DNA of 64,000 bases from Acutalibacteraceae bacterium (GTDB lineage Bacteria > Bacillota > Clostridia > Oscillospirales > Acutalibacteraceae), in contig JAZSIE010000002.1 in NCBI GenBank assembly GCA_045533655.1, forward strand, positions 35,069-99,068, written 5' to 3'. Each line of letters starts with the position of its first letter. Within the stretch, counting starts at the first letter, position 1. Positions 12,763-22,321 of the stretch are shown here, piece after piece. Under the pieces are notes generated by a model, which did not search any database, had not been told where the DNA came from, and saw only the letters and a program-made list of their open reading frames with translations. The translations under genes were made by a program, and so were the position numbers.

Positions 12763-13443
12763 TTATCTTCTTATAGAACCGTAAATAAGGTCTAAGAGAA
12801 TTTCGATAATAGACATTAAATCACGAAGGAATTGATATTCTTCAAATTCAATATCGTAACCTGCAGAACCGTCGATATCTCTTTTGATTTCATAATTACA
12901 TTTAGTACAGAAATTAGATTCTGTTTCATCTCTTGTGAATGTAGAATCATTATTTCTTTCCCATTCTTCATCATCTGAATATTTCCAGATGTGATCTTCC
13001 ATTGAGTCAGGAACAACATAACCACAACCAAAGCATTTTGTGCCATGCTTTGTACTACCAAGACTTGAGTTTTCTTCAAGTCTGTGGTTAACAGTAACTG
13101 GAATGTTAGCAACAAACTGACCATCAAGCGTAACACTTACTTCTTTAACGTCAACAGAAAGGATGTTAGAAGCTTTTGGTGAGAATGTGAAACGATATGA
13201 AATACTGCTTGAATAATAAACAACTTCTAAAACAGAACCTGTTGAATCTTTTATTGTAATAGAAATTCCTTCAGGATCAAATTTTTCGTAATCGTAATAC
13301 TCAGTTTTATATGGTCCAGATGATAATTCAAAAGTATATTTATCATCTGGTGTTGTTTCGTCTGCAGCAAAAGCGATTACTGAAAATACTGAAAGAAGCA
13401 TAAGCACAGAAAGAACTGTAGCTAAAAATCTTTTAGTTTTCAT
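12763..13443 (-). CDS. secreted protein: signal peptide, Ig-like domain, Cys/His module, C-terminal amphipathic helix (paralog 1)
   Basis: 226 aa. Signal peptide ending IAFAADE. P.KTEYY..EKFDPEGI Ig-like start, PVTVNH, then KCFGCG...HIW...TFT...FCTKCN. Confidence 0.7.
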   Translation of the reverse strand: MKTKRFLATVLSVLMLLSVFSVIAFAADETTPDDKYTFELSSGPYKTEYYDYEKFDPEGISITIKDSTGSVLEVVYYSSSISYRFTFSPKASNILSVDVKEVSVTLDGQFVANIPVTVNHRLEENSSLGSTKHGTKCFGCGYVVPDSMEDHIWKYSDDEEWERNNDSTFTRDETESNFCTKCNYEIKRDIDGSAGYDIEFEEYQFLRDLMSIIEILLDLIYGSIRR

Positions 13444-13460
13444 TCAATTACCCTCCGCAA

Positions 13461-14084
13461 TTAGATTAAAGCGAAGCCTTCAACAATAGTTGTAACGAGA
13501 GCTAAAATAGTTACAAGAATGTCGATATTAGCAAAAATTGTTGCATAAGTAGCTGTGCCAGGAATGTATTGGCTGACTGTGTCGCCACAAACTAAGCAAG
13601 TACCTGTTTCTGTTTCGCTTCTTACAAGAGTTGCATCGCCATTAGGAACCCAGTAAGGAACGTCATGGCTTTCATTTTTACAAATAACTCCACAAGCTGA
13701 GCAAATCTGACCGTGGTGGTGGTTGTTTACAGGAACAATTTCGCCACCAGCGTGAGAAACAGTAACTGGAACAAAACCACAAGATTCACCTTTGTAGAAT
13801 ATTTCGATTTCTGTCATGTAAACAGTAAGGTTTTCATCCTTTTCTGTTGTGAATGTGAAGTACTGATAATCTGTGTCATAAGAAACATTTGTTGAACCAT
13901 CACTTATAATAAGTCCGGTTGCATCAAAGCATTCAGCATCAGTGTATTCCGATTTTGTTGGTTGAGTATAAACTGTGTAAACAGAAGTTGGTCTCTCAGT
14001 TTCTTCTGCAGATGCTACCACTGTCATAGAAAGGGCAAGACATACTATTGCCATGACGATAGCAAGAATTTTACGGGTTTTCAT
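13461..14084 (-). CDS. secreted or tail-anchored protein: signal peptide, Ig-like domain, Cys/His module, C-terminal hydrophobic helix (paralog 2)
   Basis: Start moved to the ATG at 14084, 8 nt after GGAGG. Signal peptide ending VVASAEE. P.KSEYTDAECFDATGL, PVTVSH, ICSACG...H..PYW...TGTCLVCG. C-terminal ILVTILALVTTIVEGFALI. Confidence 0.7.
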   Translation of the reverse strand: MKTRKILAIVMAIVCLALSMTVVASAEETERPTSVYTVYTQPTKSEYTDAECFDATGLIISDGSTNVSYDTDYQYFTFTTEKDENLTVYMTEIEIFYKGESCGFVPVTVSHAGGEIVPVNNHHHGQICSACGVICKNESHDVPYWVPNGDATLVRSETETGTCLVCGDTVSQYIPGTATYATIFANIDILVTILALVTTIVEGFALI

Positions 14085-14295
14085 AACAAATTCCTCCAAA
14101 ATGTTATTTTTTTACTACTGCATTATAACACACTTTTTTCTAAATGTAAAGATACAAAATAAAGTATATTGCATAAATTTTTCACTAAATATGGCATTTT
14201 TGTTGTAAAAGGGTGTGTTTTGGTTGACTAAACCCTTAAAAAAATATATAATTAACATAAAATTTTAAAAAAATAAACGAAAAGGTGGAGTTGAT

Positions 14296-14985
14296 TTGCT
14301 AATTAAAGGTTTTCAGAAGTTGACTCTTCTTGACTATCCTGGTAAAACTGCCTGTACAGTATTTACGGGTGGGTGTAATTATCGTTGTCCGTTTTGTCAC
14401 AATGCTGGATTAGTTACTAAATTGGATACAGAAATTATTTCTGAAAGTGAAGTTTTTAACCATTTAGAAAAACGTCAAGGGATATTAGATGGTATTGCAA
14501 TCAGTGGTGGTGAACCATTATTGCAGGGCGATATTGAAGAATTTATGCAAAAAATAAAAGATTTGGGTTATTCAATAAAACTCGACACAAACGGAAGTTT
14601 TCCAGATAAATTAAAGAGTATTATTGATAAAGGTCTTTGTGATTATGTAGCTATGGATATTAAAAATTCAAAAGAACGCTACAATGAAACAATAGGAATT
14701 AATAAATTCGATATATCTTTAATGGAACAAAGCGTAGAAATTCTTATGAATTCAAACGTAGATTTCGAATTCCGTACAACAATAACAAAGAATTTTCATA
14801 CAATAGAAGATATAAAGAAAATAGGCGAGTGGATAAAAGGCACAAAAAAGTATTATCTTCAGAATTTTGTTGATTCGGGTAATCTTATTGATTGTAACGT
14901 AGAAGGTGTTTCTAAGGAAGAAATGCAGAAAATGTTAGAAGCAATTAAAGAATATATACCAACGGCAGAAATTCGCGGTTTATAA
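14296..14985 (+). CDS. nrdG: anaerobic ribonucleoside-triphosphate reductase activating protein (radical SAM)
   Basis: 229 aa. CNYRCPFCHN radical-SAM cluster motif and GGEPLLQ. TTG start after a GGTGGAG RBS. Confidence 0.9.
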   Translation: MLIKGFQKLTLLDYPGKTACTVFTGGCNYRCPFCHNAGLVTKLDTEIISESEVFNHLEKRQGILDGIAISGGEPLLQGDIEEFMQKIKDLGYSIKLDTNGSFPDKLKSIIDKGLCDYVAMDIKNSKERYNETIGINKFDISLMEQSVEILMNSNVDFEFRTTITKNFHTIEDIKKIGEWIKGTKKYYLQNFVDSGNLIDCNVEGVSKEEMQKMLEAIKEYIPTAEIRGL

Positions 14986-15006
14986 TATTGTATAGGGGAA
15001 ATTAAG

Positions 15007-15735
15007 TTGGAGAGAATTTTAGAATTAAAAAGAGAAATTGAAAAGGCTAATAAAATTTGTGTGTTTACTGGTGCGGGTATAAGTTGCCCGTCGGGGATAC
15101 CTGATTTCAGAAGTGCAGACGGCTTATATAATGAAAAGGGTGATTATGAATATTCACCTGAAGAGATGATTTCTCACACATTCTTTGTTAACAATACAAA
15201 ATTATTTTATGATTTTTATAAATCAAAAATGATTTATGAAAATGCAAAGCCCAATAAAGCTCATATTTATTTTGCAAATCTTGAAAAGCAATATAAAAGA
15301 GTGAGTGTAGTTACACAAAATATTGATTCCTTACATACGTTAGCTGGAAGTACCAATGTTTTTGAGATACATGGCAGTGTAAAAAGAAACTATTGTATTT
15401 GTTGTAAAGAGTTTTATGATGAGAAGTATATTTTAGAGTGTGATGGTGTTCCTCATTGTAAAAAATGTGGTGGTATTGTAAAACCTGACGTTGTTCTTTA
15501 TGAAGAAGGTTTGAACCAGAAAACAGTTGAGGGAGCAATCGATGCAATAAGAGAAGCAGAGCTTCTTATTATAATAGGGACGTCGCTTGCGGTTTACCCT
15601 GCGGCTTCGTTTGTTTCTTATTTTAAGGGTGGAAAAATAGCACTTATTAATAAGAATAAGACCGATTTTGATAAAAAAGCCGATATCGTTATATATGACG
15701 ATATTGTGAATGTAATAGAGAAATTAGAAGGTTGA
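15007..15735 (+). CDS. cobB: NAD-dependent protein deacylase, Sir2 family
   Basis: 242 aa. GAGISCPSGIPDFRS, QNIDSLH, HGS, and a Zn ribbon CICC...CKKCGG. Confidence 0.9.
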   Translation: MERILELKREIEKANKICVFTGAGISCPSGIPDFRSADGLYNEKGDYEYSPEEMISHTFFVNNTKLFYDFYKSKMIYENAKPNKAHIYFANLEKQYKRVSVVTQNIDSLHTLAGSTNVFEIHGSVKRNYCICCKEFYDEKYILECDGVPHCKKCGGIVKPDVVLYEEGLNQKTVEGAIDAIREAELLIIIGTSLAVYPAASFVSYFKGGKIALINKNKTDFDKKADIVIYDDIVNVIEKLEG

Positions 15736-15763
15736 ACACAAGATATTGTGTTCAACTTTTTTC
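15731..15763 (+). terminator. Rho-independent terminator after cobB
   Basis: gttgaacacaa / ttgtgttcaac stem followed by TTTTTT. Confidence 0.85.
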
Positions 15764-15842
15764 TATAAAAATCAGATTTTGCGAAATTTGTCGTAAAATG
15801 ACCAAAAGAAAACTGTAATATATGTGCATATTGCATATAAAA

Positions 15843-15858
15843 ATCAATATCTTGTGAT
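15843..15858. promoter_or_regulatory. Possible third (degenerate) NrdR box
   Basis: atcaatatcttgtgat matches the palindrome of box 1 at 11 of 14 positions; its centre is about 41 bp upstream of box 1. Confidence 0.25.
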
Positions 15859-15884
15859 TTTGACCTAAAAAAAGTTGATTTTAA

Positions 15885-15900
15885 CCACAATATATTGTGA
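15885..15900. promoter_or_regulatory. NrdR box 1
   Basis: ccACAATATATTGTga contains the perfect palindrome cacaata/tattgtg, matching the NrdR-box consensus acaCwAtATaTwgtgt. Confidence 0.6.
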
Positions 15901-15908
15901 TTTTTCTA

Positions 15909-15937
15909 TTGACAACACGAAATATATCTGTTATTAT
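15909..15937 (+). promoter_or_regulatory. Candidate sigma-A promoter of nrdD
   Basis: TTGACA (15909-15914), 17-nt spacer, TATTAT (15932-15937). Confidence 0.55.
15914..15931. promoter_or_regulatory. NrdR box 2, overlapping the promoter spacer
   Basis: aACACGAAATATATCTGT; its centre is about 30-31 bp from box 1, as in the usual tandem arrangement. Confidence 0.5.
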
Positions 15938-15990
15938 CCTATATGCTAACGAAAAACGAAAAGAAATATAATTTTAAGGAGAAAGAAATA

Positions 15991-18372
15991 ATGTATCAGG
16001 TTATCAAAAGAGATGGCAAAGTTTCAGGTTTTGATATAATCAAAATCGCAGACGCAATTAAAAAAGCATTTGAAGCATGTGAAAAACAATACAATGATAA
16101 TATCATTGATTTTCTTGCTTTAAAAGTTACAGCAAACTTTGAACCAAAAATCAGTAACAATCTTGTTGCTGTTGAAGACGTTCAGGATAGCGTTGAATCA
16201 GTTCTTGTTCAGGCTGGTTACGCAGACGTTGCAAAGGCTTATATCCTTTACAGAAAACAACGTGAAAAAATCCGTAATATGAAATCAACAATCCTTGACT
16301 ATAAAGATTTGGTTGACAGCTACGTTAAAGTTACAGACTGGCGTGTTAAAGAAAACTCAACAGTTACTTACTCTGTTGGTGGTCTTATTCTTTCAAACTC
16401 AGGTGCTATTACTGCTAACTACTGGCTTTCAGAAATTTATGATGAAGAAATCGCTAACGCTCATCGTTCAGGCGACGTTCACATTCACGACCTTTCAATG
16501 CTTACAGGTTACTGTGCTGTTTGGTCACTTAAACAACTTATTAAAGAAGGCTTAGGCGCTGTTCCTGGCAAAATTACATCAGCACCGGCAAGTCACCTTG
16601 CAACTCTCTGCAACCAGATGGTTAATTTCTTAGGCATTATGCAGAACGAGTGGGCAGGTGCTGAGGCTTTCTCATCATTTGATACTTACTTAGCTCCATT
16701 TGTAAAAGTAGATAACCTTGATTACAAAGGCGTTAAAAAATGTATTGAATCATTCATTTTCGGTGTAAATACACCATCTCGTTGGGGTACACAGGCTCCA
16801 TTCTCAAACATCACTTTAGACTGGACTGTTCCTGCTGACCTTAAAGATATGCCTGCTATTGTAGGTGGTAAAGAGATGGATTTCACCTATGGTGATTGTA
16901 AAAAAGAAATGGATATGGTTAACAAAGCATTCATTGAAATAATGATTGAAGGCGATGCTCACGGTCGTGGCTTCCAATATCCAATTCCAACATACTCAAT
17001 TACTCGTGACTTTGACTGGTCAGAAACAGAGAATAACAAACTTCTCTTTGAAATGACTGCAAAATATGGTACACCATATTTCTCAAACTACGTTAACTCA
17101 GATATGGAACCAAGCGACGTTCGTTCAATGTGCTGCAGACTTCGACTTGACCTTCGTGAACTTCGTAAAAAGAGCGGTGGTTTCTTCGGTAGTGGTGAAA
17201 GCACAGGTTCTATTGGTGTTGTTACAATTAACTTACCAAGAAGTGCATATCTTGCTGAAAACGTTGAAGATTTCTATAAGAGATTAGATAAACTTATGGA
17301 TATTTCTGCTCGTTCACTTAAAGTTAAGAGAGGCATTATTACAAAACTTCTTGATGAAGGTCTTTACCCATATACAAAGCGTTACCTTGGTACATTTACA
17401 AACCACTTCTCAACAATTGGTCTTATTGGTATGAATGAAGTTGGTCTTAACGCTAAATGGCTCCGTAAAGATATGACTCATAAAGAAACACAAGAGTTTG
17501 CTAAAGACGTTCTCAATCACATGAGAGAAAGACTTTCTGACTATCAAGAAGAATATGGTGACCTTTACAACTTAGAAGCTACACCGGCAGAAAGTACAAC
17601 ATATCGTTTTGCAAAGCACGATAAAGAAAAATATCCTGCAATTATTACTGCAAACGAAAATGGTACACCTTACTACACAAACTCTTCACACTTACCTGTT
17701 GGTTACACAGCAGATATTTTCGAAGCACTTGATGCACAAGATGAACTTCATACACTTTACACATCAGGTACAGTATTCCATGCATTCTTAGGTGAAAAAC
17801 TTCCTGACTGGAAAGCTGCTGCAAATCTTGTTAAGAAAATTGCAGATAACTACAGACTTCCTTACTACTCAATTTCACCAACATATACAGTATGCTGTAA
17901 CCACGGTTACATTCAAGGTGAGGTTTACACTTGCCCAGATTGTGGTGAAGCAACAGAAGTTTATAGCCGTATTACTGGTTACTATCGTCCTGTTCAGAAC
18001 TTTAATGATGGTAAAGCACAAGAGTTCAAAGACAGAAGAGTTTACGATATTATTCACTCAAGCTACGAAAAAGCAGAAAGAACAGTTGACCACGCTCACT
18101 GTTGCCCGGAAGCAGAAACAAAAACTCAGGTAGCAGTAGCAGATGCAACGTTTACACTTTTCGCAACAAAAACTTGCCCTAAATGTAAAATTGCTGCTCA
18201 ACTTCTTGACCAAAAGGGTATTTCTTATGAAAAACTCTTTGTAGAAGATAACGTTGAAGTTGCTAAAAAACTCGGCTTAAAACAAGCCCCATCACTCGTA
18301 ATTTACAATGGTGATGAAGCAACTGTTATTTCTGATTTACCAGCAGTTAAAGAGTTTATTGAAAATATGTAA
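15991..18372 (+). CDS. nrdD: anaerobic (class III) ribonucleoside-triphosphate reductase fused to a C-terminal glutaredoxin/NrdH-like domain
   Basis: Start at MYQVIKRDGKV (ATP-cone) after an AAGGAG RBS. Finger-loop SMCCRLRL, Zn site CC...CPDCG, and glycyl-radical motif RITGYYRP (Gly codon 17977-17979). An extra ~80-aa tail carries TKTCPKC (18175-18186) and a ...APSLVIYNG thioredoxin-fold pattern. Confidence 0.92.
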   Translation: MYQVIKRDGKVSGFDIIKIADAIKKAFEACEKQYNDNIIDFLALKVTANFEPKISNNLVAVEDVQDSVESVLVQAGYADVAKAYILYRKQREKIRNMKSTILDYKDLVDSYVKVTDWRVKENSTVTYSVGGLILSNSGAITANYWLSEIYDEEIANAHRSGDVHIHDLSMLTGYCAVWSLKQLIKEGLGAVPGKITSAPASHLATLCNQMVNFLGIMQNEWAGAEAFSSFDTYLAPFVKVDNLDYKGVKKCIESFIFGVNTPSRWGTQAPFSNITLDWTVPADLKDMPAIVGGKEMDFTYGDCKKEMDMVNKAFIEIMIEGDAHGRGFQYPIPTYSITRDFDWSETENNKLLFEMTAKYGTPYFSNYVNSDMEPSDVRSMCCRLRLDLRELRKKSGGFFGSGESTGSIGVVTINLPRSAYLAENVEDFYKRLDKLMDISARSLKVKRGIITKLLDEGLYPYTKRYLGTFTNHFSTIGLIGMNEVGLNAKWLRKDMTHKETQEFAKDVLNHMRERLSDYQEEYGDLYNLEATPAESTTYRFAKHDKEKYPAIITANENGTPYYTNSSHLPVGYTADIFEALDAQDELHTLYTSGTVFHAFLGEKLPDWKAAANLVKKIADNYRLPYYSISPTYTVCCNHGYIQGEVYTCPDCGEATEVYSRITGYYRPVQNFNDGKAQEFKDRRVYDIIHSSYEKAERTVDHAHCCPEAETKTQVAVADATFTLFATKTCPKCKIAAQLLDQKGISYEKLFVEDNVEVAKKLGLKQAPSLVIYNGDEATVISDLPAVKEFIENM

Positions 18373-18398
18373 TTAATAAAAAACCCATAAATTTTTAA

Positions 18399-18440
18399 CG
18401 GGTGTCTGGAATTTTTTAAGTTCCAGACACCGATATTTTA
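18399..18440 (+). other. Hairpin between nrdD and the TrxR-like gene (weak terminator or attenuator)
   Basis: cgggtgtctggaa / ttccagacaccg stem; poor T tract. Confidence 0.4.
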
Positions 18441-18454
18441 AAGGTGATTTTATA

Positions 18455-19360
18455 ATGAAAGATATTATCATAATCGGTGCAGGTCCTGCGGGACTTACTG
18501 CGGCACTTTATGCATTAAGAGCGGGTAAAAGCGTTCTTGTTATTGAAAAAAGCACGTTCGGTGGTCAGGTAACGTTTTCACCTAAAATTGAAAATTACCC
18601 TGGTATTCCGGAAATGACTGGTAACGAATTTGCAGATAAACTTCTTGACCAGGTTTTAGCTATGGGTGCTGAAGTTGAAATGGAAAAAGTTACCGGTATT
18701 ATAAATGAAGGAAACAGAAAATTAGTTTTTGCGGGCGATAAAAAATATGAAGCGAAAGCAGTTATAATTGCTGTTGGTGTTAAACACAGACAATTAGGCT
18801 TAGAAAGAGAAAACGAACTTACTGGTAAGGGTATTTCTTACTGTGCAGTTTGTGACGGTGCATTTTACAACGGTCAGACAGTCGGCGTTGTAGGTGGCGG
18901 TAACTCTGCTTTACAAGAAGCAGTTCTTCTTTCAGATATTTGTGAAAAGGTTTACGTTTTCCAGAACCTTTCATATATGACAGGTGAAAAGAAACTTGTT
19001 GAAATTCTTGAAGCAAAGTCTAACGTTGAATTTATGACAGACGTTGTTGTAAGTAACTTAAAAGGTGACGACGAATTAACAGGCGTTACGTTAAAGCACA
19101 CAACAAATGGCGAAAAAGAAGTAGCGTTAAATGGTCTTTTTGTTGCTATTGGTCTTGAGCCATCAAATAGCGATTTCAGCGATATGGCTACACTTGATAG
19201 TAACGGCTACTTTGATTCTGACGAAGCGTGCATTACAAAAACAGAAGGTATTTACGTTGCAGGTGACTGCCGTAAAAAGAATATCCGTCAGATTACAACT
19301 GCAACTGCAGACGGTGCTTCAGCAGCACTTGCCGCTTGCAGATATATAGATGCGATATAA
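18455..19360 (+). CDS. low-Mr thioredoxin reductase-like flavoprotein lacking the NADPH HRRxxxR motif
   Basis: 301 aa. GAGPAGLTAALY (FAD), redox CAVCDG, GGGNSALQEA. QNLSYMT sits where canonical TrxR has HRRDxFR. Confidence 0.88.
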   Translation: MKDIIIIGAGPAGLTAALYALRAGKSVLVIEKSTFGGQVTFSPKIENYPGIPEMTGNEFADKLLDQVLAMGAEVEMEKVTGIINEGNRKLVFAGDKKYEAKAVIIAVGVKHRQLGLERENELTGKGISYCAVCDGAFYNGQTVGVVGGGNSALQEAVLLSDICEKVYVFQNLSYMTGEKKLVEILEAKSNVEFMTDVVVSNLKGDDELTGVTLKHTTNGEKEVALNGLFVAIGLEPSNSDFSDMATLDSNGYFDSDEACITKTEGIYVAGDCRKKNIRQITTATADGASAALAACRYIDAI

Positions 19361-19435
19361 AAATAATGGTGTTATATGCTGAAATTTATGGTTGTTCAGT
19401 ATGTAACGTCTTGAAATAAAAATGCCAATACAAAC

Positions 19436-19474
19436 AAAAACAGCGGTAAGAATAGTCTTACCGTTGTTTTTGTT
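19436..19474 (+). terminator. Rho-independent terminator after the TrxR-like gene
   Basis: aacagcggtaaga / tcttaccgttgtt stem followed by a T-run. Confidence 0.8.
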
Positions 19475-19555
19475 GCAAATAAGAAAGATCTGTGGTATTA
19501 TTAAGTTGCAGACAAAAGTCTGATTGGGAGAAAATACTAAAAAGGGTGAATTATT

Positions 19556-20230
19556 ATGAAAAAAGATAAGTCGAAAAAGTTTGCGATTCTTGCGGGATTA
19601 TTTTTCTTTATTCCTGCTTTAACTGCCCTGCCAAGCATAATCTCAATGAATATAATTACAGGTTCAGATTTAACGAGTCAGGTTATGCTACGAGGATTGA
19701 TAGTTTTAGCTGTTGACAGTCTCATTTCTTTAGCACTTTCTATAGCACTATTTGTTCGTAAAAAGAATGCATCGTTTGTTGTGATTACATCGCTGTGGTT
19801 AGTGTTTTACATAGCAAGATGTATAGTTTTGGTGTCAGGATTCAGCGTAAATATATTTTTAAACGTAATTTCTTTAGTGGTTATTGTTTGGTTGTTTATG
19901 ACTAATTGCTTACCGAAATTTAAAGGTTATATAAGTACAACTAAGGGCTTGTGGTTCGTTCCGTACGTACTAAATGTATTAATGTCTTTTTTTGATTTAA
20001 TAGAAAATGTTACGGATTATCTTAAATTCGGCTTAACAAACGAAATAGTTATGACAGTTATAACTATAGGCTTTGGTGGTGCTATTAGTAGTTTGTCATA
20101 TTTATTTATGGGCTTATGGCTTTACAAAAGTTATGAAAACGAAATCAACAATAATGATTTGGTTTTAGAGCAACCTACATATATAACTGCCCCAGAGATT
20201 GTAGAAGTAAAGGAAGAAACAACAGAATAA
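19556..20230 (+). CDS. multi-pass membrane protein, unknown function
   Basis: 224 aa with about 6 hydrophobic helices. AAGGGTGA RBS. Confidence 0.6.
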   Translation: MKKDKSKKFAILAGLFFFIPALTALPSIISMNIITGSDLTSQVMLRGLIVLAVDSLISLALSIALFVRKKNASFVVITSLWLVFYIARCIVLVSGFSVNIFLNVISLVVIVWLFMTNCLPKFKGYISTTKGLWFVPYVLNVLMSFFDLIENVTDYLKFGLTNEIVMTVITIGFGGAISSLSYLFMGLWLYKSYENEINNNDLVLEQPTYITAPEIVEVKEETTE

Positions 20231-20279: not shown

Positions 20280-21632
20280 TTATTTATTCATTCTTTTCTT
20301 TGCATTCTCAAGTGCTTTCTGGTACGGCATTAACATACCTTCATTCATTTTGTCACCCATTTTAGATTTCATTTTTTCTGAAGAAAGCATACCACCAACT
20401 AAATACATTAAAAGCATACGCTTCCATTGTTTTTGCGGGAAGTCATACTGGTTATGAGATTTATAGAATTTGTGGTCTGCTTTCATCATACCCTGCATAA
20501 TCCAGATTAAATCTCTGAATACCTTCATACCACCAATGCCATAGAAATTCTGTGGTAAAAGAATTTTCTTTTCTAAAGCGTAGTCTAATTTCTTTGCTAA
20601 TTTATCAATGCTTTCGTTTGCATCTTCTTCGTTTGAAGCAACGCCACAAAGGAAGTTGTGACCGACCTCTGCTCTTGCTTCAATAATTGTTCTTAAGTTT
20701 TCTTCAACACTTAAATGACCGTTTACAATGTAGCCTATTGGCATACCTATAGTAACAGTTCTGTGACCATTACAGAATTGTCTGTCATCATACATTTTAA
20801 AACGTGCACCCATTGAGTGGTCTTTGATTGTAAAAGCATAAACAATTGCTTCTGCTTTCTGAATATCATTTCTTAAAAATTCATCGAAATTATCTTTGTA
20901 AATACATTTGCCTGAAACTGCACAGTTAAAGCAACCAAGGCAACCACTCTTGAATGGATAATCTTTAATATTTACAATTCTTGTCTTTTTAGTGCATTTT
21001 GCTCTGAAACGTGCAATCATATTTTTTAGCGCTTCGTCATTTTCGTCACAGTCTGTAACAATAACAACATCGCCTTGCTTTTCGTCTGCACATTCAATTA
21101 CTTCTGTATTTGTGAGTGTAGCACGAGAAGTTATTTTAATTTCTTTTTCATAAATGTTATTCTGGATATTGAACATAACGTAGTCGAAGAATTCTTCTGC
21201 CTGCTTCTGACCTTTTTCAGTAGATAAGTCATCCATATCTGCAGAAAGTCCGTTAATATATTTAAGTCCTAAATCAAAGCAGTTGTCTTTTATGTAACGA
21301 TGTGCAGTTGTGTCATAAAAATGCTTTGAGGTAGTAAATTGTGTAGCAAATTTTTCGCTTAAATCTAATTTTGCATCCTTTAAAAGCTCAATAAATCTGT
21401 GAAGCTGACAAGGTGCAATAAATGTATAAACAGGGTAAGAAAAAACAAGTAAATCCGCCTTTTTTACTTCTTCAATTGCTTTACTGAAATCTTTTTCTAA
21501 AACCTTTATTTTTTGCCCTGCATCAAGCACAGAAAACTCGTGCTCGGGGTGTAAAATTTTTAAGTAATTTGTTGTTTGCAAAGTAATGCTGTTCTGCCCC
21601 TTAGGACTGCCGTTAATAATTAAGATGTTCAT
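20280..21632 (-). CDS. two-domain flavodoxin-like / NAD(P)H-dependent FMN reductase family protein with a Cys cluster
   Basis: 450 aa. MNILIINGSPKG... flavodoxin-fold N-terminus, a second similar half, and CLGCFNCAVSGKC (C-x2-C-x2-C-x5-C). Confidence 0.7.
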   Translation of the reverse strand: MNILIINGSPKGQNSITLQTTNYLKILHPEHEFSVLDAGQKIKVLEKDFSKAIEEVKKADLLVFSYPVYTFIAPCQLHRFIELLKDAKLDLSEKFATQFTTSKHFYDTTAHRYIKDNCFDLGLKYINGLSADMDDLSTEKGQKQAEEFFDYVMFNIQNNIYEKEIKITSRATLTNTEVIECADEKQGDVVIVTDCDENDEALKNMIARFRAKCTKKTRIVNIKDYPFKSGCLGCFNCAVSGKCIYKDNFDEFLRNDIQKAEAIVYAFTIKDHSMGARFKMYDDRQFCNGHRTVTIGMPIGYIVNGHLSVEENLRTIIEARAEVGHNFLCGVASNEEDANESIDKLAKKLDYALEKKILLPQNFYGIGGMKVFRDLIWIMQGMMKADHKFYKSHNQYDFPQKQWKRMLLMYLVGGMLSSEKMKSKMGDKMNEGMLMPYQKALENAKKRMNK

Positions 21633-22207
21633 TTGTTGTTCATCTCCAAATCAGAATTGTCATCGTCTTTAATTATTTTAATATCTTTTGAAAATTTGTT
21701 GATATATGGTTCAATATCGTTGTATTCGATATAAGGTTTAACAAATCCCTTACAAAAAGAATAACCTAAAATAAATAATATAATTTTTCCTAAAAAAGAA
21801 GTCTTGCAATGTTTGAGTTTAAGTCTTATTAAGATGCAATCATCTGTTTTGATAAGAGTTTTAATAGAATTCCAGGGAATGCATTTTATAGGGATTGCTA
21901 AAAGAATTGCAAAAAGATTGATAATAACAAAACTATTTTCAATGCCTTTTTCAGTAAGCGAAAAAGCGGAACCTTTATTTTTTACAAATATTCTAAGCAG
22001 ATTTATAACTGTTAGAAGATAAGTAAAAAGAACCAAGCTAATAGCGATGCATAAAAAAAGTGAAAATCCTTTGCTAAGTGGTTGGTTGTTTTCGTCAAAA
22101 ATTTGGTTGGTATATAGCATATATACAGCTTTATACCCTAAAGGTTGAATTCCACCAAACAAAATGACAATAAACCAAAATCTCCAGTTTAATTTGTGTT
22201 CTTTCAT
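21629..22207 (-). CDS. membrane protein, unknown function (4-nt overlap with the downstream flavoprotein gene)
   Basis: Start moved to MKEHKLNW after a GGAGATGA RBS. Several TM helices plus a small soluble segment. Confidence 0.5.
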   Translation of the reverse strand: MKEHKLNWRFWFIVILFGGIQPLGYKAVYMLYTNQIFDENNQPLSKGFSLFLCIAISLVLFTYLLTVINLLRIFVKNKGSAFSLTEKGIENSFVIINLFAILLAIPIKCIPWNSIKTLIKTDDCILIRLKLKHCKTSFLGKIILFILGYSFCKGFVKPYIEYNDIEPYINKFSKDIKIIKDDDNSDLEMNNK

Positions 22208-22321
22208 AATATCATCTCCTGAAATTGAGTATATCATAAACACAACATTTTTTCAAATAAACTTGACAAATGCCCGTGTTTTTGTAAATATAGATATAGT
22301 AAAAACAAAGGAGAAATTTTT

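What the first reader, a model, noticed from the sequence alone, without database searches (positions are those of the whole stretch)
15991..19360. Class III RNR fused to a CPKC glutaredoxin-like domain, followed by a TrxR homolog without the NADPH motif
Beyond the glycyl-radical motif (RITGYYRP) and Zn site, NrdD continues for about 130 aa. It ends in a thioredoxin-fold segment, FTLFATKTCPKCKIAAQLLDQKGISYEKLFVEDN...APSLVIYNG. The next gene is a low-Mr thioredoxin-reductase homolog with FAD and CAVCDG motifs. Where canonical NADPH-dependent TrxR has HRRDxFR, this protein reads QNLSYMT. Established knowledge: most class III RNRs use formate, but subtypes using thioredoxin (Neisseria bacilliformis) or an NrdH-like protein with a ferredoxin-dependent reductase (Methanosarcina barkeri) have been described. 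Clostridial TrxR-like enzymes that use NADH (Cp34/Cp9) or ferredoxin (FFTR) instead of NADPH are also known. A covalent NrdD-redoxin fusion with such a reductase next door suggests a dedicated disulfide-based electron path to NrdD. Caution: the finger loop reads S-M-C-C-R-L, so it contains both a Met two residues before the second Cys (as I recall for formate-type E. coli NrdD) and a Cys pair. I cannot assign the subtype by eye.
Basis: partly seen in the sequence, partly recalled or inferred. Interest (0 to 1): 0.62.

Follow-up and report, generated by a model that had tools for sequence, protein, structure and literature searches.

The report
Anaerobic RNR fused to its redoxin
This gut bacterium's oxygen-sensitive enzyme for making DNA building blocks carries a small built-in redox protein and is always followed by an unusual reductase gene, a widespread but undescribed pairing that probably feeds the enzyme its electrons.

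Summary
Window 15991-18372 encodes a 793-aa class III ribonucleotide reductase (NrdD). It comprises an ATP-cone, the NrdD core, a roughly 35-aa Cys/His-bearing linker and a 74-aa thioredoxin-fold domain with CPKC. The next gene (18455-19360) is a low-Mr thioredoxin reductase homolog. It keeps the FAD, CAVC and pyrophosphate (GGGNSA) motifs, but QNLSYMT replaces HRRDxxR.

The finger loop SMCCRL is not odd. MCCR plus the active-site Glu is the majority, biochemically untested, double-Cys class III type.

This architecture is conserved in an uncultured Acutalibacteraceae clade (170 hits among species genomes). The reductase gene lies directly downstream in every locus examined.

A CPNC version of the fusion is abundant in gut metagenomes (at least 593 hits). 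There a reductase gene follows in 69 of 78 evaluable loci, often 1-6 nt away and sometimes between nrdD and nrdG. These reductases come in three motif states: canonical NADPH type, the window type, and a type that has lost both nucleotide motifs.

Best reading: a dedicated relay from reductase to tethered redoxin to the NrdD active-site cysteines. The electron donor is unknown, with NADH the leading guess. Nothing has been tested biochemically. In the literature I found only one supplementary-table entry for a Grx:NrdD fusion.

The parts
14296..14985 (+). nrdG, the radical-SAM activase of class III RNR
   Evidence: NCBIfam TIGR02495 NrdG2, 223.7 bits against a cut-off of 131. It lies upstream of nrdD in every related locus with enough upstream DNA, except L002.
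15736..15900 (.). Two NrdR-box-like palindromes: ACACAAGATATTGTGT at 15736 and CCACAATATATTGTGA at 15885
   Evidence: Pattern scan. At least one box lies within 300 nt upstream of nrdD in 63 of 63 loci and none in the nrdD-trxR spacer. The whole 64-kb window has only 3 hits.
15909..15937 (+). Promoter-like site TTGACA-17-TATTAT with TG extension
   Evidence: 11 of 12 matches. This is a consensus match only.
15991..18372 (+). NrdD::redoxin fusion gene, 793 aa
15997..16266 (+). ATP-cone domain, residues 3-92
   Evidence: Pfam PF03477, E 7e-21.
16351..18045 (+). NrdD catalytic core with glycyl-radical domain, residues 121-685
   Evidence: Pfam PF13597, E 1.9e-187.
16513..16515 (+). Cys175, the betaA active-site cysteine
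   Evidence: Aligns with T. maritima Cys125. Invariant in alignment A3.
17125..17139 (+). Finger-loop motif S379-M-C-C-R383
   Evidence: Aligns with T. maritima S328-C-C-R331. SMCCRL is present in 116 of 116 homologs.
17575..17577 (+). Glu529, the putative proton donor
   Evidence: Aligns with T. maritima Glu495, the column used by Burnim et al.. NLEATPAE is present in 116 of 116 homologs.
17890..17991 (+). Zn-ribbon cysteines (C635, C636, C648, C651) and glycyl-radical motif RITGYYRP (660-667, Gly663)
18079..18111 (+). Conserved linker motif R-T-V-D-H-A-H-C-C-P-E (residues 697-707) inside a segment predicted disordered
   Evidence: R, D, H, H and the first Cys are invariant across 50 sequences, with one or more further Cys within 4 residues. 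pLDDT is below 50. Its function is unknown.
18148..18369 (+). Glutaredoxin/NrdH-like thioredoxin-fold domain (residues 720-793), with the active site C729-P-K-C732 at 18175-18186
   Evidence: Pfam PF00462. AlphaFold2 pLDDT 85-91. Foldseek matches thioredoxins. CPKC is present in 116 of 116 homologs.
18401..18431 (+). 14-bp hairpin followed by GATATTTTAA, a terminator-like element between nrdD and the reductase gene
   Evidence: A stable hairpin is present in 80 of 80 distinct spacers of the clade, with a median of -18.8 kcal/mol. The stem sequences differ between sub-clades.
18455..19360 (+). Atypical low-Mr thioredoxin reductase homolog, 301 aa
18842..18853 (+). Redox-active C130-A-V-C133 of the reductase
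   Evidence: CAVCDG is present in 81 of 81 orthologs.
18893..18919 (+). Pyrophosphate-binding motif GGGNSALQE, retained
   Evidence: Present in 80 of 81 orthologs and conservative in the other.
18962..18982 (+). Q170-N-L-S-Y-M-T176 in place of the 2'-phosphate motif HRRDxxR
   Evidence: Alignments to three canonical TrxRs. QNL and TGE are invariant in the motif variants listed for 81 orthologs.

Best explanation
The locus encodes a self-contained class III RNR system that draws its reducing equivalents for turnover through protein thiols.

Components:
- NrdG installs the glycyl radical on NrdD.
- NrdD belongs to the MCCR-plus-Glu double-cysteine type.
- The NrdD C-terminus continues through a flexible linker of about 35 residues into a minimal Grx/NrdH-like redoxin with CPKC.
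- The downstream flavoprotein is a thioredoxin-reductase homolog with an intact FAD site and CAVC disulfide.

Proposed electron path: donor, then FAD, then CAVC of the reductase, then the tethered CPKC redoxin, then the Cys175/Cys381 disulfide left in the active site after each turnover. The conserved Cys pair in the linker may be an intermediate step before the active site.

The donor is probably not NADPH, because the 2'-phosphate motif is replaced. NADH is the leading guess, because the pyrophosphate motif is strictly kept. My split for the donor is NADH 0.45, ferredoxin/flavodoxin or another non-pyridine donor 0.35, NADPH 0.1.

Shown here: the architecture, the motif states, and conservation of the gene pair across hundreds of genomes and metagenome contigs.

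Inferred: every electron-transfer step, the donor, and the role of the linker.
For: - The fusion and its motifs are invariant in 116 homologs. There are 170 hits among species-representative genomes, all uncultured Acutalibacteraceae/Oscillospirales MAGs.
- The reductase is directly downstream in all 83 loci (81 distinct) despite differing flanks.
- Fusions whose redoxin carries CPNC instead gave at least 593 metagenome hits. A reductase is adjacent in 69 of 78 evaluable loci. The gap is 1-6 nt in many, and in L101, L105 and L106 (and L104, L108 with a spacer before nrdG) the reductase lies between nrdD and nrdG.
- In 23 of 59 distinct partners the reductase is a fully canonical GGG+HRR TrxR. 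In those lineages TrxR reducing the redoxin is the plain reading.
- In a tree, the HRR-type partners are basal and group with four solved NTRs. The window type and the doubly degenerate type form one derived group (SH-aLRT 93). This suggests a donor switch inside a lineage of nrdD-linked reductases.
- The NrdD active site has the betaA Cys, the adjacent finger-loop Cys pair and the Glu required for dithiol-dependent turnover in N. bacilliformis NrdD.
- An unfused MCCR+Glu relative in an archaeal contig has nrdD-nrdG-thioredoxin (WCGPC).
- Precedent: a Grx fused to class I NrdB is a working RNR reductant (PMC6187632).
- Precedent: a TrxR lacking HRRxxxR uses NADH, as T. acidophilum TR does (PMC6262447).
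Against: - Met380 is retained. It is the residue that supports formate-dependent chemistry in E. coli NrdD, so formate use is not excluded.
- There is no biochemical or genetic test of any kind.
- AlphaFold2 gives no docking of the redoxin on the core. The linker and the glycyl-radical loop score pLDDT below 50.
- A terminator-like hairpin separates nrdD from the reductase gene in this clade.
- Metatranscriptome contigs suggest much lower reductase coverage than nrdD coverage. Co-expression would therefore rely on read-through.
- About 10% of CPNC-type fusions have no adjacent reductase.
- Whether the genome holds another TrxR, or a formate source, could not be checked.
Confidence: 0.6

Rival explanations
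1. Formate remains the turnover reductant, through the Met380/Cys175 thiosulfuranyl route. The tethered redoxin and its reductase then serve an auxiliary role. They keep NrdD cysteines reduced (Zn-ribbon or active-site pair) so that NrdG can install the glycyl radical, or they repair the enzyme after oxidative damage.
For: - Met is conserved in SMCCRL in all homologs.
- Burnim et al. note that MCCR enzymes hold the parts for either reductant.
- Thioredoxin was reported to activate E. coli NrdD: Padovani et al., JBC 2001, a reference listed in PMC4390871. I take its content from my own knowledge.
Against: - The second finger-loop Cys and Glu529 are invariant. Formate-type enzymes have a single-Cys MGCR loop, and per Burnim the Glu is the residue proposed as essential for formate-independent reduction.
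- A stoichiometric, covalently tethered redoxin with its own reductase is a heavy investment for an occasional repair role.
- An unfused relative has thioredoxin in the nrd operon.
Confidence: 0.2
2. The redoxin domain is a redox switch or sensor. Oxidation of CPKC, or of the linker His/Cys motif, by oxygen or disulfide stress turns NrdD off or protects the radical site. The reductase resets it.
For: - The linker motif DHAHC(x)C is conserved and looks like a metal or redox site.
- NrdD is oxygen-sensitive (established knowledge).
- The reductase seems to be expressed at a lower level than nrdD (weak evidence).
Against: - No known precedent in RNRs.
- Many CPNC-type fusions lack linker cysteines altogether yet keep the reductase neighbour.
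- The active-site residues point to dithiol chemistry.
Confidence: 0.1
3. The reductase is simply the organism's general thioredoxin reductase. Its position beside nrdD has no special meaning, and the fused redoxin is one client among many.
For: - Whether other TrxR genes exist in the genome could not be tested.
- The 64-kb window holds no other thioredoxin-like CxxC gene.
- Some fusions (P0121, P0173) have no adjacent reductase.
Against: - Adjacency holds in all 83 loci (81 distinct) and in 69 of 78 loci across lineages whose other flanking genes differ.
- The gap is 1-6 nt in many loci, and the reductase is placed between nrdD and nrdG in some.
- Motif switching occurs within this linked lineage.
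Confidence: 0.08

Closest known systems
Neisseria bacilliformis / Thermotoga maritima NrdD ('NrdD2', thioredoxin-dependent class III RNR; Wei et al. 2014, as described in PMC9669993 and PMC4493059)
   Same: Double-Cys finger loop, betaA Cys and active-site Glu (window C381/C382, C175, E529). A protein dithiol is the proposed reductant.
   Different: Those enzymes have SCCR without Met, no fused redoxin, and use the cell's free thioredoxin. The window enzyme has MCCR. It is only distantly related to T. maritima NrdD (PDB E 1.7e-36).
Methanosarcina barkeri NrdD3 with NrdH-like redoxin and ferredoxin:disulfide reductase (Wei et al. 2015, cited in PMC9176816)
   Same: A Grx/NrdH-like redoxin dedicated to a class III RNR, reduced by a reductase that does not use NADPH.
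   Different: NrdD3 has QCCR/A with neither Met nor Glu. Its redoxin is a separate protein. From my own knowledge, its reductase is an Fe-S ferredoxin:thioredoxin-reductase-type enzyme, not a flavoprotein TrxR homolog.
Facklamia ignava Grx::ATP-cone::NrdB fusion (class I; Rozman Grinberg et al. 2018, PMC6187632)
   Same: A glutaredoxin domain covalently fused to an RNR subunit, shown there to work as the RNR reductant. The same paper's Table S1 lists one Grx:NrdD fusion (Lachnospiraceae bacterium TWA4) without further study.
   Different: In F. ignava the fusion is N-terminal, on the radical-generating subunit of an aerobic class I enzyme, with a glutathione-dependent Grx. Here the fusion is C-terminal on the catalytic glycyl-radical enzyme, with a TrxR-type partner gene.
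Clostridium pasteurianum Cp34/Cp9 and T. maritima TR/Grx-like systems (TrxR-like flavoprotein that reduces a Grx-like protein with NADH)
   Same: A low-Mr TrxR homolog paired with a small Grx-like redoxin, with a pyridine-nucleotide preference shifted away from NADPH. The best NCBIfam hit of the window's redoxin domain is the YruB family of C. pasteurianum (27.8 bits). T. maritima TR prefers NADH (PMC5627308).
   Different: Those systems serve peroxide or general thiol reduction and their redoxins are free proteins. The YruB model cut-off (88.6 bits) is not reached. The Cp34/Cp9 details come from my own knowledge, as I found no paper on them in the library.
Atypical low-Mr thioredoxin reductases: FFTR (clostridial ferredoxin-dependent), DvTRi, T. 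acidophilum NADH-TR
   Same: All have lost the HRRxxxR 2'-phosphate motif.
   Different: - FFTR lacks both NAD(P)H-binding motifs (GxGxxA and HRRxxxR).
- In TRi the pyrophosphate motif is highly degenerate and TQ/NGK replaces HRRD.
- The window enzyme keeps GGGNSA and has QNL instead.
- Its PDB matches to FFTRs (6gna, 6gnc; E 1e-33 to 1e-36) are far weaker than its matches to canonical NTRs (1e-66).
- The sister 'type B' partners (GDANTALQY / TLFDRFF) look more like nucleotide-independent enzymes.
C-terminal cysteine-pair shuttles of class I and class II RNRs (e.g. the Cys-rich Zn-finger tail of NrdJ, PMC5704485)
   Same: A flexible C-terminal extension with a Cys pair, lying between the external redoxin and the active site. 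This resembles the window's DHAHCC linker and the CxxC or CC linkers of relatives.
   Different: No such shuttle has been described for class III enzymes. About half of the related fusions have no linker Cys at all, so a shuttle role is speculative.

Membership tests
Class III ribonucleotide reductase (NrdD) | NrdD catalytic core recognised by curated models | tested here: met
   PF13597, E 1.9e-187. NCBIfam PRK08270 scores 1122 bits against a cut-off of 548, and TIGR02487 scores 517 against 326.
Class III ribonucleotide reductase (NrdD) | C-terminal glycyl-radical motif RxxGY preceded by a Cys-rich Zn site | tested here: met
   RITGYYRP at 660-667 and C635/C636/C648/C651. These align with the T. 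maritima and P. copri enzymes.
Class III ribonucleotide reductase (NrdD) | Cognate radical-SAM activase NrdG encoded nearby | tested here: met
   TIGR02495 scores 223.7 bits for the ORF at 14296-14985. Its position is conserved.
Dithiol-dependent class III RNR ('NrdD2' in the sense of Wei 2014 and Burnim 2022) | Two adjacent Cys in the finger loop plus the betaA Cys | tested here: met
   C381-C382 and C175 align with T. maritima C329-C330 and C125.
Dithiol-dependent class III RNR ('NrdD2' in the sense of Wei 2014 and Burnim 2022) | Active-site Glu at the T. maritima E495 column | tested here: met
   E529 in NLEATPAE.
Dithiol-dependent class III RNR ('NrdD2' in the sense of Wei 2014 and Burnim 2022) | No Met at the start of the finger-loop motif (SCCR), the mark of thioredoxin-only enzymes | tested here: not met
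   The motif is MCCR. This places the enzyme in the 83% majority group, whose reductant is unassigned.
Dithiol-dependent class III RNR ('NrdD2' in the sense of Wei 2014 and Burnim 2022) | Turnover supported by redoxin plus reductase and not by formate | not testable with these tools
   Needs an anaerobic enzyme assay.
Formate-dependent class III RNR (NrdD1) | Single-Cys finger loop MGCR | tested here: not met
   The window has MCCR. P. copri 'MGCR' aligns with 'MCCR'.
NrdD3 (M. barkeri type) | QCCR/A loop with neither Met nor Glu | tested here: not met
   Both Met380 and Glu529 are present.
Thioredoxin-fold redoxin (Grx/NrdH-like) | CxxC at the N-terminus of helix 1 in a beta-alpha-beta-alpha-beta-beta-alpha fold, with a cis-Pro loop | tested here: met
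   AlphaFold2 secondary structure with pLDDT 85-91. Foldseek probability is 1.0 to thioredoxins. PF00462 scores 28.2 against a gathering cut-off of 22.9. CPKC and QAP are conserved.
NrdH redoxin | Curated NrdH model; from my own knowledge, also the CVQC and WSGFRP motifs | tested here: not met
   TIGR02194 scores 22.9 bits against a cut-off of 85.75. The motif is CPKC and there is no WSGFRP.
Classical glutathione-dependent glutaredoxin | Curated Grx models; from my own knowledge, CPYC and glutathione-binding residues | tested here: not met
   GRX_bact scores 21.9 against 90, and Grx3 scores 22 against 129.
NADPH-dependent low-Mr thioredoxin reductase (NTR, TIGR01292) | FAD GxGxxG motif, redox CxxC, and Trx-binding G[RK]G | tested here: met
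   GAGPAG, CAVC and GKG.
NADPH-dependent low-Mr thioredoxin reductase (NTR, TIGR01292) | 2'-phosphate motif VxxxHRRDxxR | tested here: not met
   VYVFQNLSYMT replaces it. The substitution is fixed in 81 of 81 orthologs.
NADPH-dependent low-Mr thioredoxin reductase (NTR, TIGR01292) | Score above the curated equivalog cut-off | tested here: not met
   317.3 bits against 343.45.
Ferredoxin-dependent flavin thioredoxin reductase (FFTR) | Loss of both the GxGxxA and HRRxxxR motifs, and clustering with clostridial FFTRs | tested here: not met
   GGGNSA is retained. PDB FFTR chains score E 1e-33 to 1e-36, against 1e-66 for NTRs.
YumC-type ferredoxin/flavodoxin reductase | TrxR-like fold without the redox-active CxxC | tested here: not met
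   CAVC is present in all 81 orthologs, and a CxxC in all 59 wider partners.

The most novel reading that the evidence does not exclude
This reading makes three linked claims.

1. The MCCR+Glu enzymes, the largest and biochemically untested group of class III RNRs, are thiol-driven.
2. Gut Firmicutes have wired them into a covalent, self-contained electron chain. It runs from a dedicated TrxR-derived flavoprotein to the tethered redoxin, then to a linker Cys/His site that acts like the class I/II C-terminal shuttle, then to the active site.
3. Within this chain the reductase lineage has switched donors from NADPH to NADH and/or ferredoxin. The window 'QNL' type and the sister 'TLFD/GDANTA' type would then be new TrxR families dedicated to dNTP synthesis. 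They would tie DNA-precursor supply to the fermentative redox pool.
Probability: 0.3. Interest if true: 0.75.

Novelty: new variant of a known kind. Interest (0 to 1): 0.58.

Why it matters
Only three class III RNR reductant systems have been shown experimentally: formate, free thioredoxin, and NrdH with a ferredoxin:disulfide reductase. The commonest double-Cys type (MCCR+Glu) has no assigned reductant.

A natural fusion of that type to a redoxin, with a reductase gene locked beside it, is strong genomic evidence for thiol-based turnover. It occurs in hundreds of gut and rumen genomes.

It also offers a convenient system of three genes encoding four functional parts in which to test the question in vitro.

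The linked reductases form a natural series. Some are canonical NADPH types, some have lost the 2'-phosphate motif, and some have lost both nucleotide motifs. This series could show how TrxR-family enzymes change electron donor.

The organisms are abundant uncultured rumen and gut anaerobes, so the system bears on how they make DNA precursors.

Tried and rejected
- **Whole-genome questions.** A regex scan of the 64-kb window found no other thioredoxin-like CxxC gene.
- **Rfam.** A scan of 13400-19700 at E up to 1 found nothing, so there is no riboswitch such as B12.
- **Full-length AlphaFold2.** Mean pLDDT was 75.5, but the finger loop, the glycyl-radical loop and the linker scored below 50. 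There was no information on where the redoxin docks, so it is not used as evidence.
- **Foldseek of the tail.** It confirms a thioredoxin fold but cannot separate Grx, NrdH and Trx.
- **Assembly or gene-call artefact.** Rejected, because the architecture recurs in 116 homologs and more than 160 loci.
- **YumC-type ferredoxin reductase feeding NrdG.** Considered because of PMC4626851. Rejected because the CxxC is invariant.
- **Reductase linkage limited to the CPKC clade.** I held this view. It was overturned by the phage-database hit L092 and the metagenome scan.
- **Correlation between linker cysteines and non-NADPH reductase types.** It may be real, but it is confounded by shared ancestry, so I do not rely on it.
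- **Metatranscriptome contigs.** They show that nrdD is expressed in bovine gut samples and that the reductase region has lower coverage. Strain mixtures and the contig-only data make this weak.
- **Literature.** Wei 2014, Wei 2015, Susanti 2017 and Hernandez 2008 are not held. Their content is cited through papers that describe them, or marked as my own knowledge.

Full report
**1. What is in the window**

Four same-strand genes lie between 14296 and 19360:
- nrdG (14296-14985): NCBIfam NrdG2, 224 bits.
- A Sir2/CobB deacylase (15007-15735).
- nrdD (15991-18372).
- A thioredoxin-reductase homolog (18455-19360).

The nrdD ORF opens at 15943. However, a promoter-like TTGACA-17-TATTAT site ends at 15937 and all homologs are 793 aa.

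NrdD has an ATP-cone (residues 3-92), the NrdD core (121-685, PF13597 E 1.9e-187, PRK08270 1122 bits) and a Pfam Glutaredoxin match at 722-771 (28.2 bits, above the 22.9 gathering score).

Motif positions:
- Cys175
- S379-M-C-C-R383
- Glu529
- Zn-site Cys 635, 636, 648 and 651
- RITGYYRP 660-667
- RTVDHAHCCPE 697-707
- CPKC 729-732

**2. The redoxin domain**

AlphaFold2 on an alignment of 50 tails gives a disordered linker (pLDDT below 50). It is followed by a beta-alpha-beta-alpha-beta-beta-alpha domain at pLDDT 85-91. Foldseek matches it to thioredoxins with probability 1.0.

The four-strand topology and the Pfam hit make it Grx/NrdH-like. It reaches none of the curated cut-offs for NrdH, YruB-type or classical glutaredoxins. 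I therefore file it only as a thioredoxin-fold redoxin with CPKC.

**3. The NrdD subtype**

HMMER alignment to T. maritima NrdD (4COI) places:
- window Y174-C175 on Tm Y124-C125,
- S-M-C-C-R on Tm S328-C-C-R331,
- E529 on Tm E495.

E495 is the column Burnim et al. used for the putative proton-donor Glu. That paper reports two dominant class III finger-loop motifs, MGCR and MCCR. Met is present in 83% of double-Cys enzymes. [quoted passage not shown]

It is neither strict 'NrdD2' (SCCR+Glu), nor NrdD1 (MGCR), nor NrdD3 (QCCR, no Glu). No enzyme of this state has an experimentally assigned reductant, as far as the papers I could read show.

**4. The reductase**

Its best PDB matches are canonical NADPH-dependent TrxRs (E 1e-66 to 1e-62). 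Clostridial FFTR chains match far more weakly, at 1e-33 to 1e-36.

In residue-by-residue alignments the window's V-Y-V-F-Q-N-L-S-Y-M-T lies opposite V-x-x-x-H-R-R-D-x-x-R of three NTRs. GAGPAG (FAD), GKG, CAVC and GGGNSALQE are kept. It scores 317 bits on TIGR01292, under the 343 cut-off.

Valette et al. describe the pyrophosphate motif GGGxxAxE as highly conserved in NADPH- and NADH-type TRs but degenerate in nucleotide-independent TRi. They describe the 2'-phosphate motif as the discriminator between groups. T. acidophilum TR lacks HRRxxxR and is NADH-dependent.

This makes NADH the leading guess for the window enzyme, but sequence alone cannot settle it.

**5. Conservation in the window's clade**

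- A search with the tail alone found 268 protein clusters, essentially all about 793 aa, with Pfam ATP-cone and NRDD throughout and the Glutaredoxin call in most rows. They are named only 'ribonucleoside triphosphate reductase' from Clostridia, Ruminococcaceae or Acutalibacteraceae MAGs.
- SMCCRL, NLEATPAE and CPKC are invariant in 116 full-length members.
- A scan of species-representative genomes found 170 hits. All listed records are uncultured MAGs, and many come from ruminant guts.
- In all 83 loci fetched (81 distinct) the reductase ORF follows nrdD directly, at 68-96% identity.
- nrdG precedes nrdD wherever upstream DNA exists, except in L002. Sir2 is inserted between them in only about 17 loci. 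Outer flanking genes differ.
- In 81 reductase orthologs GAGPAG and CAVCDG are invariant and GGGNSALQEA is kept in 80 (QES in the other). The 2'-phosphate site reads V-Y-[VIL]-[FL]-Q-N-L-x-[YF]-x-T-G-E. So the departure from HRRD is fixed and under selection.
- The linker is otherwise variable. It keeps an invariant R-x-x-D-H-x-H-C followed by one to three more Cys.

**6. The module is much wider than this clade**

Among the 150 best 50%-identity representatives of NrdD, at least 17 carry a C-terminal thioredoxin-fold tail. Their active sites are mostly CPNC, with some CPKC, CPRC and CQNC. Several carry inteins and lie in phage-like contexts.

A hit in the phage collection (MT835493, an unverified human-faecal scaffold) turned out to encode three genes in a row:
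- nrdG,
- nrdD::redoxin (CPNC, linker SDTCCGE),
- a TrxR homolog starting 4 nt after the nrdD stop.

In that homolog both nucleotide motifs are altered, to GDANTALQY and TLFDRFF.

Of 81 loci, 78 could be evaluated, and 69 have the reductase directly downstream. The gap is often 1-6 nt. In L101, L105 and L106 (and L104, L108 with a spacer before nrdG) the reductase lies between nrdD and nrdG. NrdD carries SMCCRL and NLEATPAE in every locus where the ORF reaches those positions (62 and 68 of 81; the rest are cut by contig ends).

The 59 distinct partner reductases fall into three states:
- Type A: canonical GGGxxA + HRRxxFR (23).
- Type B: GDANTALQY + TLFD[RKH]FF and close variants (32-34).
- Type C: the window's state, with GGG kept and Q-N/D-L/M/F (3, plus the 81 of the CPKC clade).

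In a quick IQ-TREE tree with four solved NTRs:
- type A is basal and partly groups with the NTRs;
- B+C form one group (SH-aLRT 93);
- B is monophyletic (99);
- 14 of 15 type C sequences form a clade (97).

The root is a midpoint root only. The simplest reading is that an nrdD-linked NADPH-type TrxR lost its 2'-phosphate site once, and that the B branch later lost the pyrophosphate site as well.

**7. Regulation and expression**

NrdR-box-like palindromes lie upstream of nrdD in 63 of 63 loci and never in the nrdD-reductase spacer. The whole window has only three such hits, two of them at 15736 and 15885.

In the CPKC clade a stable hairpin with a T-run follows the nrdD stop in 80 of 80 distinct spacers. 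The median is -18.8 kcal/mol and the stems differ between sub-clades. Spacers of 53-84 nt leave no room for a separate promoter. I therefore infer that the reductase is expressed by partial read-through, which would set a high NrdD to low reductase ratio.

Bovine gut metatranscriptome contigs cover nrdD well and the reductase region less. In one run two overlapping contigs bridge the hairpin. This is weak evidence, because strains are mixed and only contigs were available.

Rfam finds no riboswitch.

**8. Mechanism proposed**

- Shown: the parts and their conservation.
- Inferred: after each reduction NrdD is left with a Cys175-Cys381 disulfide, by analogy with N. bacilliformis NrdD. The tethered CPKC redoxin reduces it, possibly through the linker Cys pair. 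The reductase's CAVC/FAD re-reduces the redoxin. The donor is NADH, or a low-potential carrier.
- Supporting context: an unfused MCCR+Glu relative has a WCGPC thioredoxin gene after nrdG. A Grx fused to class I NrdB is a proven reductant.

The main rival keeps formate as the turnover reductant, because Met380 is conserved. It gives the redoxin an activation or repair role (the Padovani 2001 precedent).

**9. Novelty**

Rozman Grinberg et al. (2018) list one Glutaredoxin:NrdD protein in a supplementary table, with no analysis. Burnim et al. (2022) analysed class III finger loops, but their text makes no mention of glutaredoxin, NrdH or fusion in any class (zero occurrences). Searches for NrdD with glutaredoxin, fusion, trxB or gene cluster found nothing further.

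So the kind is known: thiol-dependent class III RNR, redoxin fusions to RNR subunits, and atypical TrxRs. The covalent NrdD::redoxin plus locked reductase module, its abundance in gut anaerobes, and the three-state series of reductases appear undescribed.

**10. Limits**

- There is no biochemistry.
So 'dedicated' rests on synteny alone.
- The full-length model gives no docking information.
- The tree is a quick search with arbitrary rooting.
- Many loci are near-duplicates, so the counts are not independent events.

Noticed in passing
window 18401-18431; L001-L083 nrdD-trxR spacers: A strong hairpin with a T-run sits between nrdD and the reductase gene in every member of the CPKC clade. The stems differ in sequence (for example ATTACCGTCC...GGGCGGTAAT, GGGGCTG...CAGCCCC). 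The CPNC lineages instead have 1-6 nt gaps. This looks like a conserved attenuating terminator that sets the NrdD-to-reductase ratio.
   Followed up: partly
L003, L022, L025-L031, L034, L040, L047, L048, L051-L053, L063, L064, L073-L076, L082 (nrdD-trxR spacers of 160-350 nt): The longer spacers carry a shared insert after the terminator. It has tandem GAGGAATG/AGGAGTG-like repeats followed by a CGGGACCTGCGGTC...GCATTGTA-like segment. It may be a small mobile element or a small-RNA gene.
   Followed up: no
window 18079-18111; alignment A2: The linker motif R-T-V-D-H-A-H-C-(C/xC/xCxC) is invariant in an otherwise variable segment that is predicted disordered. Related fusions carry other His/Cys linker motifs (SDTCCGE, NCAC, GCACEE, HDKCVCDDKKC). 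They are mostly found where the partner reductase lacks HRR. It could be a metal site or a dithiol shuttle, and this is unresolved.
   Followed up: partly
window 15007-15735: A Sir2/CobB NAD-dependent deacylase gene lies between nrdG and nrdD here and in about 17 related loci, but is absent from the others. It is probably incidental.
   Followed up: partly
P0128 (829 aa) and P0169 (782 aa): These are NrdD-like proteins, 57% and 44% identical to the window NrdD. They have lost the betaA Cys, the finger-loop Cys pair and the glycyl-radical motif, and carry long low-complexity tails. P0169 keeps a thioredoxin-fold tail without a CxxC. They may be pseudo-enzymes.
   Followed up: no
L086, L087, L092: NrdD::redoxin fusions also occur in phage-like or mobile contexts. 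These show inteins, a nrdD split by a homing-endonuclease gene, ArdA, and an integrase next to the module in MT835493.
   Followed up: partly
L090 610-3798: An archaeal-looking contig (Rpb5/Rpb2 genes) carries nrdD (AMCCRL, NLEATPAE), nrdG and a thioredoxin (WCGPC). It is an unfused version of a redoxin-linked MCCR+Glu class III RNR.
   Followed up: partly
window 12763-14099 (- strand): Two adjacent paralogous ORFs (226 and 212 aa) have N-terminal signal-like segments, His/Cys-rich middles and hydrophobic C-termini. They were not included in any family scan, so their function is unknown.
   Followed up: no
window 20280-22243 (- strand): A 450-aa protein with two flavodoxin-like/FMN-reductase halves and a Cys cluster overlaps by 4 nt a 204-aa membrane protein gene. 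It is not conserved next to the nrd module in other loci.
   Followed up: no
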